Shown piece after piece: positions 11,766 through 12,551 of a DNA stretch of 64,000 nucleotides. This DNA is from a virus. Its lineage: Duplodnaviria > Caudoviricetes. Below the pieces are notes generated by a model. It ran no database searches. It worked only from the letters and a program-made list of their open reading frames with translations, and had not been told where the DNA came from. Within the stretch, counting starts at the first letter, position 1. The number at the start of each line of letters is the position of its first letter. Location: the IMG/VR virus record IMGVR_UViG_3300020460_000012; one strand, given 5' to 3'. Position numbers and translations under genes: made by a program.

Positions 11766-12120
11766 AAAAGCAATATTACGAAGTAATATTGTTGTAACTT
11801 CATGTAGATTGTTTCAGTCAGACGGAACCTTACACTAGGCTCCATCATCTCGAAAACTTCATGTGAGTTCGTCACAGCCGAGATCGGAAGTAGGTATTTG
11901 ACTATGCTACTGGGCTCTGACCTTTCCCAACCTACGTCGACATCACGAAAAAATTTGCAAAACCGCTTTACCGCTTCGCGGATTTCTTCGCTATCCCCCG
12001 CTTCGTTCCAATGCGTGGGGTTTTTGTAGCATACAGCCTATTGGACTACACCAGAATCTGAACATATGCGAATATGTCCTCAAGGTGAATCAAGCAATCT
12101 TGATTAAACAGTGTCCTTGT
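11766..12120 (-). ncRNA. Candidate large structured non-coding RNA of unknown class
   Basis: No convincing gene in the 11672-12125 gap; 48% GC in 11821-12060 (hand count 116/240); at least 8 helices including a pseudoknot. G-U pairs in the 11821-11846 hairpin work only on the minus strand. Confidence 0.62.
11771..11791 (-). terminator. 9-bp hairpin followed by TTTT on the minus strand; possible 3' end of the candidate ncRNA
   Basis: CAATATTAC-nnn-GTAATATTG followed by CTTTTAAAT on the minus strand. The stem is AT-rich, so this would be a weak terminator. Confidence 0.4.
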
Positions 12121-12125
12121 TTTGC

Positions 12126-12551
12126 CTATAAAATGTTTTTTAATGCTTCTTTAAGAATTTTTGAACTGCCTACTCGCACATTAATGATACCATTGTAGTA
12201 CTCATCTGTTTCTAGTACCCTGCGATCAAACTGTTCTTTTGCCTCTAGGTAACTTAACACGCCTCTGCTGGGACAATAGTGTAAAATTTCTCTAGTAAAT
12301 TTGTCTTTGCCTAATTTTAAAACATCTGCATTCAAATGATCTGAAGATCCCCAATAGTCTCTCCAGTCACTTTCTTTGTGTCCACGTCTGCGATTTACTT
12401 TTCCCTTTAGCGGAGGTTTGCTTGTTTTAAATCTTGCTAGTTTTTTGCCTATATATTTTTTATTATTGGTAAGATTTGTAATTAGATATACAAAGCCCTC
12501 GCAATCTTGAGGTAATGTGTCTACTGTCTGTCCTTTGTATGTCCATTGCAT
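12126..12551 (-). CDS. GIY-YIG endonuclease (single catalytic domain)
   Basis: GFVYLITNLTNNKKYIGKK (GIY-YIG), DYWGSS, SYLEAKEQF and YYNG motifs. Confidence 0.88.
   Translation of the reverse strand: MQWTYKGQTVDTLPQDCEGFVYLITNLTNNKKYIGKKLARFKTSKPPLKGKVNRRRGHKESDWRDYWGSSDHLNADVLKLGKDKFTREILHYCPSRGVLSYLEAKEQFDRRVLETDEYYNGIINVRVGSSKILKEALKNIL

What the first reader, a model, noticed from the sequence alone, without database searches (positions are those of the whole stretch)
11766..12551. Minimal GIY-YIG nuclease immediately followed by the structured RNA: possible nuclease-RNA module
Seen: the predicted RNA helices begin about 20 nt after the nuclease stop codon, on the same strand. The 141-aa protein is essentially a catalytic domain plus a basic loop (KTSKPPLKGKVNRRRGHK), without the DNA-binding tail of homing endonucleases such as I-TevI. 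Established: HEARO/omega RNAs sit beside IscB/TnpB nucleases and supply specificity. Inference (speculative): the RNA could guide, scaffold or inhibit a GIY-YIG nuclease, which is not a described arrangement. The alternative is mere adjacency to a core endonuclease II-like gene.
Basis: inference. Interest (0 to 1): 0.65.

Follow-up and report, generated by a model that had tools for sequence, protein, structure and literature searches.

The report
Twin-box phage RNA beside dispensable nuclease
The gap behind a small DNA-cutting enzyme gene of this uncultured marine T4-like phage encodes a real, knotted, uncatalogued RNA of about 420 bases that carries one short word twice. The enzyme is its usual but dispensable neighbour, not a partner that needs it.

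Summary
Both parts of the observation are real. Window 12126-12551 (-) encodes a 141-aa catalytic-domain-only GIY-YIG nuclease of the I-TevI/SegE type. The ORF-free stretch from 12125 down to about 11707 on the same strand is a conserved, pseudoknotted RNA. It is absent from Rfam 15, from cultured phages and from 185,579 cellular genomes.

The link is strong in numbers. Of 97 assessable IMG/VR copies of the RNA, 92 have this nuclease gene next to them. Almost all of these are one syntenic T4-like block: gp47-gp46-(p72)-GIY-RNA.

Each part also occurs without the other:
- Three ~30-kb phage genomes rated complete carry the RNA and no GIY-YIG gene.
- Close podophage-like relatives differ by presence or absence of the nuclease gene.
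- Two T4-like contigs have a PD-(D/E)xK nuclease in its place.
- Phage Melnitz (82% identical nuclease, complete genome) gave no match to the RNA-core model.

I found no guide-like segment. The "basic loop" is equally present in nucleases without the RNA.

The oddest feature is two 11-nt boxes, 59 nt apart, that always mutate to the same letters. Their reader is unknown. This scan noted the same "twin-box" RNA family before on other genomes.

Verdict: an autonomous new phage RNA with a mobile, homing-type nuclease gene parked beside it. RNA-guided nuclease: unsupported, not excluded.

The parts
12126..12551 (-). 141-aa stand-alone GIY-YIG nuclease (catalytic domain only, SegE/I-TevI type), with a basic beta-hairpin insert at residues ~40-60
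   Evidence: ORF. PF19835 at 2e-34, phrog_447 at 2.5e-37. Invariant residues in the positions of the GIY and YIG motifs, plus R56, E88 and N120. AlphaFold pLDDT 92; best PDB fold match is the I-TevI catalytic domain 1mk0 (prob 0.98, TM 0.66 on the target).
11707..12125 (-). Whole structured non-coding RNA (~420 nt, 'twin-box' family). The part shared by all homologues is ~11707-12036.
   Evidence: No ORF, high G+C, z = -4.06. No Rfam, tRNA or tmRNA hit. Homologues. Pair counts. G-U pairs fit only this strand.
12049..12105 (-). 5' domain: hairpin 12088-12105 and a closed two-stem element 12049-12087. Shared with the window's subgroup and with the diverged 'type B' RNAs; replaced by other 5' modules elsewhere.
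   Evidence: MFE fold. Compensatory changes in the hairpin, CAAG/CUUG versus CGAG/CUCG.
12026..12036 (-). 5' strand of pseudoknot PK1: AUGCUAC at 12026-12032 (plus GGCU further 5', reaching ~12038) pairs with 11900-11910
   Evidence: Mutual information for pairs 12028/11908 and 12029/11907. Cognate versus non-cognate duplex energy, Mann-Whitney p = 5e-30; relatedness of the sequences is not corrected for.
11995..12020 (-). Hairpin P-a: a covarying 7-bp stem closing an invariant loop ...GGAACGAAG
   Evidence: 5 of 7 pairs change on both sides (helix 1). Alignment.
11945..11991 (-). Hairpin P-b, variable in length, with a covarying closing stem
   Evidence: 4 of 4 pairs change on both sides (helix 2). 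MI pair 11990/11946.
11797..11951 (-). Near-invariant core (model R1). Helices H1 11930-35/11890-95, H2 11926-29/11911-14, H4 11879-84/11847-52, H3 11838-46/11821-29, and long-range GUCG/UGAC 11938-41/11817-20.
   Evidence: Alignments A1/A2, mean column identity 81%. CM hits of 130-153 bits in other contigs. Pair counts.
11857..11867 (-). Box 1 (CUCACAUGAAG)
   Evidence: Changes together with box 2 in the direct sense.
11798..11808 (-). Box 2 (UCUACAUGAAG), 59 nt 3' of box 1
   Evidence: The two variable positions are identical to box 1 in 89/89 and 87/89 non-redundant homologues. Other word pairs in diverged relatives: GCAUGA twice, AGAUAAU twice, ACAUCAA twice.
11726..11747 (-). Hairpin P-c: GUUU/AAAC stem, tandem G-A, GC stem and a 4-nt loop (GNRA in most homologues)
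   Evidence: Alignment. MI pair 11747/11726. helices 8-9.
11707..11723 (-). Terminal hairpin, the probable 3' end of the RNA and of the early transcription unit
   Evidence: 7 of 7 pairs change on both sides (helix 10). Top MI pairs.
11691..11698 (-). T4 late-promoter-like CATAAATA ahead of the next gene (188 aa, 11105-11671). It marks the border to a late unit and is not part of the RNA.
   Evidence: A (T/C)ATAAATA-like word follows the RNA in 48 of 89 homologues, and in 0 of 89 in a control stretch.

Best explanation
The stretch is an autonomous gene for a large, pseudoknotted, stable non-coding RNA of aquatic phages. In this phage it is made as the 3' tail of the early gp47-gp46-p72-GIY-YIG transcript. 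It ends at its own terminal hairpin, just before a late promoter.

The RNA most likely works in trans. A rigid, almost invariant scaffold displays two copies of one 7-8-nt word, so it could bind two copies, or two symmetric halves, of one partner. Because the word differs between phages while the scaffold does not, I infer the partner is more probably a nucleic acid read by base pairing. A fast-evolving dimeric RNA-binding protein is the other option.

The GIY-YIG gene is not its partner. It behaves like a free-standing, homing-type or accessory nuclease gene that parks beside highly conserved genes: here the RNA gene, in phage Melnitz nrdB. It is then inherited, and sometimes transferred, together with its neighbour.

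Shown: the RNA, its structure, the twin boxes, the linkage statistics and the uncoupling. Inferred: co-transcription, action in trans, the nature of the partner, and homing behaviour.
For: RNA reality and structure. It is strand-specific, because many G-U pairs would be C-A on the other strand.

Transcription. The consensus scan found no sigma-70-type promoter between the nuclease stop codon and the RNA. A late-promoter-like word follows the terminal hairpin.

Twin boxes. Identity holds in 89/89 and 87/89 homologues and across different words.

RNA without the nuclease:
- The 30.1-kb contig G005 (CheckV 100%), its relative G009 (29.3 kb, 100%) and G010 carry the RNA at 68-111 bits. No PF19835 or GIY-YIG hit was found in any of them.
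- G011 (29.4 kb, 100%) carries a twin-box variant and no GIY-YIG.

Presence/absence among close relatives. The gene is present in L215, L216, L217 and L220, and absent in L218 and L219 (DTR-complete).

Variable position and replacement:
- The nuclease gene lies on either side of the RNA.
- It is separated from the RNA by an extra ORF in 6 contigs.
- It is replaced by PF24608 PDDEXK_15 in L143 and L181.

Nuclease without the RNA:
- Melnitz, a complete genome with an 82% identical nuclease next to nrdB, gave no R1 hit and no blastn hit.
- P-SSM2 has no gap after its copy.
- L017, L020, L022, L038 and L051 have an ORF directly behind the gene.
- The nuclease family is found in 786 cultured phage records, and blastn with the RNA stretch matched none of the 50,697 cultured-phage records.
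Against: Adjacency is very high: 92 of 97. The pair seems to have moved together into podophage-like genomes. Wherever a gene sits in the slot in T4-like contigs, it is a nuclease, even one of another fold. These three points are also what a functional pairing would give.

The nuclease lacks the DNA-binding domain that defines proven Seg and I-TevI homing enzymes. It is fixed, with no empty sites, in the T4-like clade.

No partner for the boxes was found. Expression and the RNA's ends have not been measured.
Confidence: 0.62

Rival explanations
1. Nuclease-RNA ribonucleoprotein. The RNA docks, inhibits (antitoxin-like) or targets the GIY-YIG nuclease. For example, the two identical boxes could position two nuclease subunits or choose a DNA site.
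For: 95% adjacency on the same strand. The RNA begins at the nuclease stop codon, so the two are probably co-transcribed. Adjacency is kept in flipped order after an apparent joint transfer. The nuclease has no DNA-binding domain of its own. The boxes look like a changeable specificity element.
Against: The RNA is kept in three complete small-phage genomes without the nuclease. Nucleases 78-83% identical, and Melnitz, work without it. The basic hairpin is the same in RNA-less homologues. A PD-(D/E)xK nuclease of another fold sits in the same slot. No nuclease column tracks the word; the highest MI is 0.34 of 0.76 bits, at variable N-terminal sites. A 7-nt word is too short for a guide, and it is neither depleted nor enriched in 64 kb of the phage's own DNA (11 found, 15.9 expected).
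Confidence: 0.17
2. Cis-acting end of the early operon: a 3' UTR element that terminates, stabilises or regulates the gp47-gp46-GIY transcript, with no function as a free RNA.
For: It lies at the 3' end of the unit, ends in a covarying hairpin and is followed by a late promoter. No own sigma-70 promoter was seen in the window.
Against: About 420 nt with a near-invariant 150-nt core, pseudoknots and twin boxes is far more than a terminator or stabiliser needs. The same RNA lies 5' of the nuclease gene in podophage-like contigs. It lies after unrelated genes in ~30-kb phages. An extra ORF is tolerated between it and the nuclease gene.
Confidence: 0.1
3. DNA-level signal (replication origin, packaging or recombination site, or the nuclease's own recognition region) and not an RNA.
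For: It sits next to the recombination nuclease genes gp46/gp47. It has several GC-G(N)NA-GC mini-hairpins, a type that is also very stable in single-stranded DNA (own knowledge).
Against: Helices tolerate G-U but not the mirror C-A (for example 41/41 G-U at one pair, and many A-U to G-U changes). The fold is stronger on the minus strand. Long-range pseudoknot covariation is present. Being the nuclease's homing target would be compatible with it also being an RNA gene.
Confidence: 0.06

Closest known systems
Polynucleobacter-1 RNA motif (Rfam RF01718; Weinberg et al. 2010, PMC2864571)
   Same: An orphan structured RNA from freshwater and estuary sequences. In related T4-like contigs (L011, L021) it lies in the same slot, directly after the orthologous GIY-YIG gene (99.7 and 63.4 bits). 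It is followed there by a weak twin-box core with the word AGAUAAU twice. It therefore looks like an alternative 5' module of the same larger RNA family.
   Different: The window's RNA does not match RF01718 even at E up to 10, nor does L212. The catalogued motif is 141 nt and holds neither the core nor the boxes. Its function is unknown too.
Large orphan structured RNAs of phages and prophages (GOLLD RF01998, ROOL RF03087; manA RF01745 in cyanophages)
   Same: Long, intricately folded, highly conserved, phage-borne RNAs with no known job (own knowledge; manA).
   Different: No sequence or structure match to any Rfam 15 family. Twin boxes that change together in the direct sense are not a described feature of those RNAs.
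Free-standing GIY-YIG homing endonucleases of T4-like phages (Seg proteins such as SegE; I-TevI catalytic domain, PDB 1mk0)
   Same: The same catalytic-domain family and fold. An intergenic gene beside very conserved genes. Presence/absence between close relatives, and replacement by another nuclease family at the same site.
   Different: Only 141 aa, with no C-terminal DNA-binding domain. Instead it has a basic beta-hairpin inserted in the catalytic domain. It is fixed in the T4-like clade. No cleavage data exist.
HEARO/omega RNA with IscB or TnpB
   Same: A structured RNA of a few hundred nt next to a small nuclease gene.
   Different: No Rfam HEARO match, a different nuclease fold, no variable single-stranded guide at an end, and the RNA and the nuclease each occur alone.

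Membership tests
GIY-YIG nuclease superfamily, SegE/I-TevI-type catalytic domain | Profile match to the catalytic domain | tested here: met
   PF19835 at 2e-34 and 118.9 bits (cut-off 25), residues 3-123.
GIY-YIG nuclease superfamily, SegE/I-TevI-type catalytic domain | Conserved GIY and YIG motifs plus catalytic Arg, Glu and Asn | tested here: met
   G19-F-V-Y22, Y33-I-G35, R56, E88 and N120 are invariant or nearly so in 15 and 24 homologues. Their assignment as catalytic residues is by analogy.
GIY-YIG nuclease superfamily, SegE/I-TevI-type catalytic domain | The fold | tested here: met
   Model pLDDT 92. Top PDB match is the I-TevI catalytic domain 1mk0 (prob 0.98, rmsd 3.2 A), though the Foldseek E-value is only 0.09.
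Free-standing homing endonuclease (Seg-like) | C-terminal DNA-binding domain giving a long recognition site | tested here: not met
   141 aa. The domain match ends at residue 123 and only one short helix follows.
Free-standing homing endonuclease (Seg-like) | Presence/absence polymorphism between close relatives, at a site next to a conserved gene | tested here: met
   Podophage-like lineage: present in L215, L216, L217 and L220; absent in L218 and L219. Not seen in the T4-like clade, where there were 0 empty sites among 97.
Free-standing homing endonuclease (Seg-like) | Cleaves the allele that lacks the endonuclease gene and converts it | not testable with these tools
   Needs enzyme assays or co-infection crosses.
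T4 endonuclease II (DenA) | Sequence kinship with the solved T4 enzyme | tested here: not met
   No GIY-YIG chain among the PDB sequence hits at E up to 1. No T4-type coliphage appeared among the tblastn rows shown; the Escherichia rows shown are ~88-kb genomes.
HEARO/omega-RNA-guided nuclease system | RNA matches the family model | tested here: not met
   No Rfam hit at gathering score or at E up to 10.
HEARO/omega-RNA-guided nuclease system | Variable, unpaired guide segment at one end of a conserved scaffold | tested here: not met
   The variable stretches are self-complementary hairpins. Only the two internal 7-nt words vary.
HEARO/omega-RNA-guided nuclease system | Obligate co-occurrence of RNA and nuclease | tested here: not met
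   Each occurs without the other in complete genomes.
Polynucleobacter-1 RNA (RF01718) | Covariance-model match | tested here: not met
   The window gave no hit at E up to 10. Orthologous slots in L011 and L021 do match.
Type III toxin-antitoxin (ToxIN-like) | Tandem repeats of a whole antitoxin RNA unit next to a ToxN/AbiQ-type endoribonuclease | tested here: not met
   Only two 11-nt boxes repeat, not the units between them. The nuclease is GIY-YIG.
tmRNA / tRNA / group I intron / riboswitch | Match to the family models | tested here: not met
   ARAGORN found none. Rfam found none. No flanking split gene.

The most novel reading that the evidence does not exclude
The twin-box RNA is a programmable two-site adaptor. 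Its two always-identical words base-pair with a target, such as a repeated or two-fold symmetric nucleic acid of host or phage. The neighbouring catalytic-only nuclease (GIY-YIG, or PD-(D/E)xK where it is swapped) is recruited by the scaffold as an exchangeable effector. That would be an RNA-directed nuclease system of a new type, in which the RNA can also act alone or with other effectors in small phages.
Probability: 0.1. Interest if true: 0.9.

Novelty: new variant of a known kind. Interest (0 to 1): 0.55.

Why it matters
Large, highly conserved orphan RNAs are rare. When solved, they have tended to reveal new biology (own knowledge).

This one is common in uncultured marine and freshwater T4-like phages, and it crosses into two unrelated groups of ~30-kb phages. 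Its 150-nt core is conserved better than the proteins around it. It carries a built-in riddle: two words that must stay identical. That points to a specific partner that can be found.

For the question asked, the result matters in the negative. A catalytic-only GIY-YIG next to a big RNA is tempting as a new RNA-guided nuclease, but comparative data show the two are separable. The nuclease then becomes an example of a minimal, apparently mobile GIY-YIG gene that parks beside conserved genes without a recognisable DNA-binding domain.

Tried and rejected
1. Known RNA families. Rfam 15 at gathering score and at E up to 10 on the window and on 14 related loci, plus ARAGORN. Nothing was found for the window RNA.
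2. Cultured phages. blastn with the 454-nt stretch found no match in 50,697 records. CM R1 on complete Melnitz found none.
3. Cellular genomes. An exact pattern scan of 185,579 species genomes gave 0 hits.
4. A complementary "anti-box" inside the RNA. 7-mer and 6-mer searches with wobble found no position shared by the family. A GUGU-containing loop fits in some subgroups only and is missing in the window.
5. The word or its complement in the phage's own 64 kb. No enrichment or depletion, no extended complementarity and no gene start carrying it.
6. Box word against nuclease residues. No tracking column.
7. Endonuclease II identity. No sequence support.
8. Proteins beside the RNA in GIY-less phages (173 aa, 255 aa, 99 aa, 429 aa; the Zn-ribbon-like 146-164 aa protein). 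No Pfam or PHROG family, and the atlas gave no usable lead, so they cannot be called nucleases.
9. Literature. Full-text searches for the motif name, for GIY-YIG with structured RNA, and for pelagimyophages found no description of this RNA.
10. Considered and dropped. Translational bypass of the gene-60 type, because matching words 50-60 nt apart resemble it but there is no reading frame. Start-codon mimicry, because words with AUA, AUC or GAU exist.
11. Technical failures. One pair-count call failed on string length and one alignment call on a stop codon. Both were repeated correctly.

Full report
WHAT IS THERE

The window is part of an uncultured marine T4-like phage. The closest isolate by this nuclease is Methylophilales phage Melnitz, family Kyanoviridae. 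No whole genome is held for the window.

On the minus strand the gene order is as follows:
- a gp47-like gene (14554-15567) and a gp46-like gene (12785-14557);
- a 72-aa ORF (12570-12788);
- the 141-aa GIY-YIG ORF (12126-12551);
- 454 nt without any ORF of 60 aa or more;
- a 188-aa ORF (11105-11671) and a 762-aa ORF (8820-11108).

THE PROTEIN

It matches Pfam PF19835 (SegE_GIY-YIG) at 2e-34 over residues 3-123, and phrog_447.

Its AlphaFold model is confident (pLDDT 92). Its best PDB match is the catalytic domain of the intron endonuclease I-TevI (1mk0, prob 0.98), followed by the GIY-YIG restriction enzyme PD-T4-3. It shows no sequence kinship with any solved chain at E up to 1, so the label "endonuclease II-like" has no support.

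It is catalytic domain only.

THE RNA IS REAL

Composition and folding in the window:
- G+C rises to 0.47.
- The minus strand folds with z = -4.06, against -2.2 for the plus strand.
- Rfam and ARAGORN find nothing.

Homologues:
- nhmmer found homologues directly 3' of the GIY-YIG gene in about 45 of 93 IMG/VR loci fetched through flanking proteins.

The alignments show a near-invariant 150-nt core, flanked by covarying helices and length-variable hairpins.

On 41 sequences, my ten helices gave these counts:

| Measure | Real structure | Shuffled | Partners slid |
|---|---|---|---|
| Cells forming a standard pair | 82% | 75% (0 of 500 shuffles reach 82%) | 33-43% |
| Covariation score | 0.202 | 0.111 | - |

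25 pairs change on both sides. The stems P-a and P-b and the terminal hairpin covary at nearly every pair.

A pseudoknot joins 12026-12032 (extended toward 12038) to 11900-11910. It shows in mutual information and in duplex energies: cognate -11.15 against non-cognate -7.93 kcal/mol, p = 5e-30. That p-value does not correct for relatedness, but the paired words are quite different in different subgroups.

Frequent G-U pairs fit only the minus strand. So this is an RNA, or a single strand of that sense, transcribed in the direction of the nuclease gene.

Extent and transcription:
- The RNA begins right after the stop codon.
- It ends at a covarying hairpin (11707-11723).
- A T4 late-promoter-like word follows in 48 of 89 homologues, and in 0 of 89 controls.
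- The consensus scan found no sigma-70-type promoter between the gene and the RNA.

I therefore infer that the RNA is the tail of an early or middle transcript.

THE TWIN BOXES

Box 1 is 11857-11867 and box 2 is 11798-11808. They share the word ACAUGAA(G).

At the two variable positions they are identical in 89/89 and 87/89 non-redundant homologues. The words seen there are ACAUGAA, ACAUGAU, ACAUAAU, ACAUAAA, ACAUGAG and ACAUCAA.

Diverged relatives obey the same rule with other words: GCAUGA twice and AGAUAAU twice.

This is direct covariation, not complementary covariation. I found none of the following:
- an internal complement;
- enrichment of the word in the window;
- a matching gene start;
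- a nuclease residue that follows the word.

IS IT A NUCLEASE-RNA MODULE?

Linkage counted from the RNA side. Of 118 pattern-found loci, 97 can be assessed:

| Arrangement | Loci |
|---|---|
| GIY-YIG gene directly 5' of the RNA, same strand | 84 |
| GIY-YIG 5', with one extra ORF between | 6 |
| GIY-YIG 3' of the RNA | 2 |
| No GIY-YIG within reach | 5 |

All 59 loci with enough upstream DNA also have gp46. Most of this linkage is therefore one inherited block.

The informative cases are the exceptions.

1. L143 and L181 have a PF24608 PD-(D/E)xK nuclease in the slot.

2. L096, L141 and L131 are ~31-kb podophage-like contigs (Gp77 adaptor). Their order is Zn-ribbon-like protein, then RNA, then GIY-YIG. 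L131 ends at the RNA, so its GIY-YIG gene is not seen. Both the RNA core and the nuclease of L096 and L141 are nearest to the same T4-like subgroup, which suggests joint transfer. Within this lineage, close relatives have the nuclease gene (L215, L216, L217, L220) or lack it (L218, L219). G011 (CheckV 100%) lacks the gene and keeps a twin-box RNA. G012 (direct terminal repeats) also lacks the gene, and the core model gave no hit there.

3. A second lineage of ~30-kb phages carries the RNA at 68-111 bits with the word ACAUCAA twice. No GIY-YIG was found anywhere in these contigs, including G005 and G009, both rated 100% complete.

Linkage counted from the nuclease side:
- Melnitz has an 82% identical protein next to nrdB and gave no RNA match.
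- P-SSM2 and other cyanophages have the gene in other contexts without a gap.
- IMG/VR proteins 78-83% identical to the window's are followed at once by another gene.
- Four large RNA-negative contigs gave no significant R1 hit.

The basic hairpin is conserved in all these RNA-less proteins.

READING

The two are separable in both directions, and the RNA has no guide-like end.

The behaviour of the nuclease gene fits a free-standing, homing-type or accessory nuclease gene parked beside conserved genes. It is present or absent between close relatives, lies on either side of the RNA, is swapped for another nuclease fold, and sits next to nrdB elsewhere.

Two points count against simple membership of the Seg class. 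The protein lacks a DNA-binding domain, and the gene is fixed in the T4-like clade.

A functional pairing is not excluded. High adjacency, joint transfer and "always a nuclease" in the T4-like slot keep it alive at roughly one in six.

RELATION TO KNOWN RNAs

In L011 and L021 the catalogued Polynucleobacter-1 motif (RF01718) sits directly after the orthologous nuclease gene and is followed by a weak twin-box core. That motif is probably one alternative 5' module of this larger family. The window itself does not match RF01718.

"Type B" relatives share the window's 5' and 3' domains but have a diverged core.

Full-text searches found no description of the RNA.

EARLIER NOTES OF THIS SCAN

The scan's earlier notes describe the same family on other genomes as a "twin-box" RNA beside a dispensable nuclease. 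I had reached the boxes and the Polynucleobacter-1 link before reading them.

The complete GIY-less genomes found here contradict that.

LIMITS
- There are no expression data.
- IMG/VR contigs are mostly fragments.
- Model R1 covers only the type-A core, so very diverged RNAs can be missed.
- The covariation statistics do not correct for phylogeny.

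Noticed in passing
L143:1517-2071 (-) and L181:5250-5765 (+): A PF24608 'phage putative PDDEXK endonuclease' (also phrog_244) occupies the exact slot gp46-p72-[nuclease]-RNA in place of the GIY-YIG gene. This is a non-homologous nuclease swap at one site.
   Followed up: partly
L097 / L221-L224 (contigs of 29-30 kb, two rated 100% complete): A lineage of small non-T4 phages (terminase, N6/N4 DNA methylase) carries a diverged twin-box RNA with the word ACAUCAA twice. 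It lies after an unknown 173-aa gene, and no GIY-YIG was found in these contigs.
   Followed up: partly
L215-L220, L096, L141, L131: ~30-kb podophage-like genomes (Gp77 fibre-tail adaptor) have a Zn-ribbon-like 146-164-aa protein, then the RNA, then (in some only) the GIY-YIG gene. In L217 the RNA core is replaced while both RNA ends are kept.
   Followed up: partly
L011:4463-4605, L021:4507-4650: Rfam Polynucleobacter-1 (RF01718) sits directly behind the orthologous GIY-YIG gene and ahead of a weak twin-box core. The orphan motif looks like one module of a bigger RNA.
   Followed up: partly
window 11857-11867 and 11798-11808, and homologues: Positions 4-6 of the 7-nt word read UGA or UAA in nearly all word classes (UCA in the small-phage lineage). 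The 5-6 nt before each box also look paralogous and seem to change together. This could be purine preference or stop-codon mimicry; untested.
   Followed up: no
window 11691-11698 (-), 11105-11671 (-), 8820-11108 (-): A late-promoter-like CATAAATA lies ahead of two Ala/Gly/Lys-rich proteins that start MKIDEI and MKINEV. Neither has a Pfam or PHROG family. The genes following the RNA differ between contigs, while the upstream side is constant.
   Followed up: no
L001 (Melnitz MZ577097.1 30449-30889): The 82% identical GIY-YIG gene lies two genes after the ribonucleotide reductase small chain. nrd genes are a classic landing place of free-standing homing endonucleases in T4-like phages (own knowledge).
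   Followed up: no
window 28391-44188 (+): A single 5265-aa ORF, seen in the ORF list and not examined.
   Followed up: no
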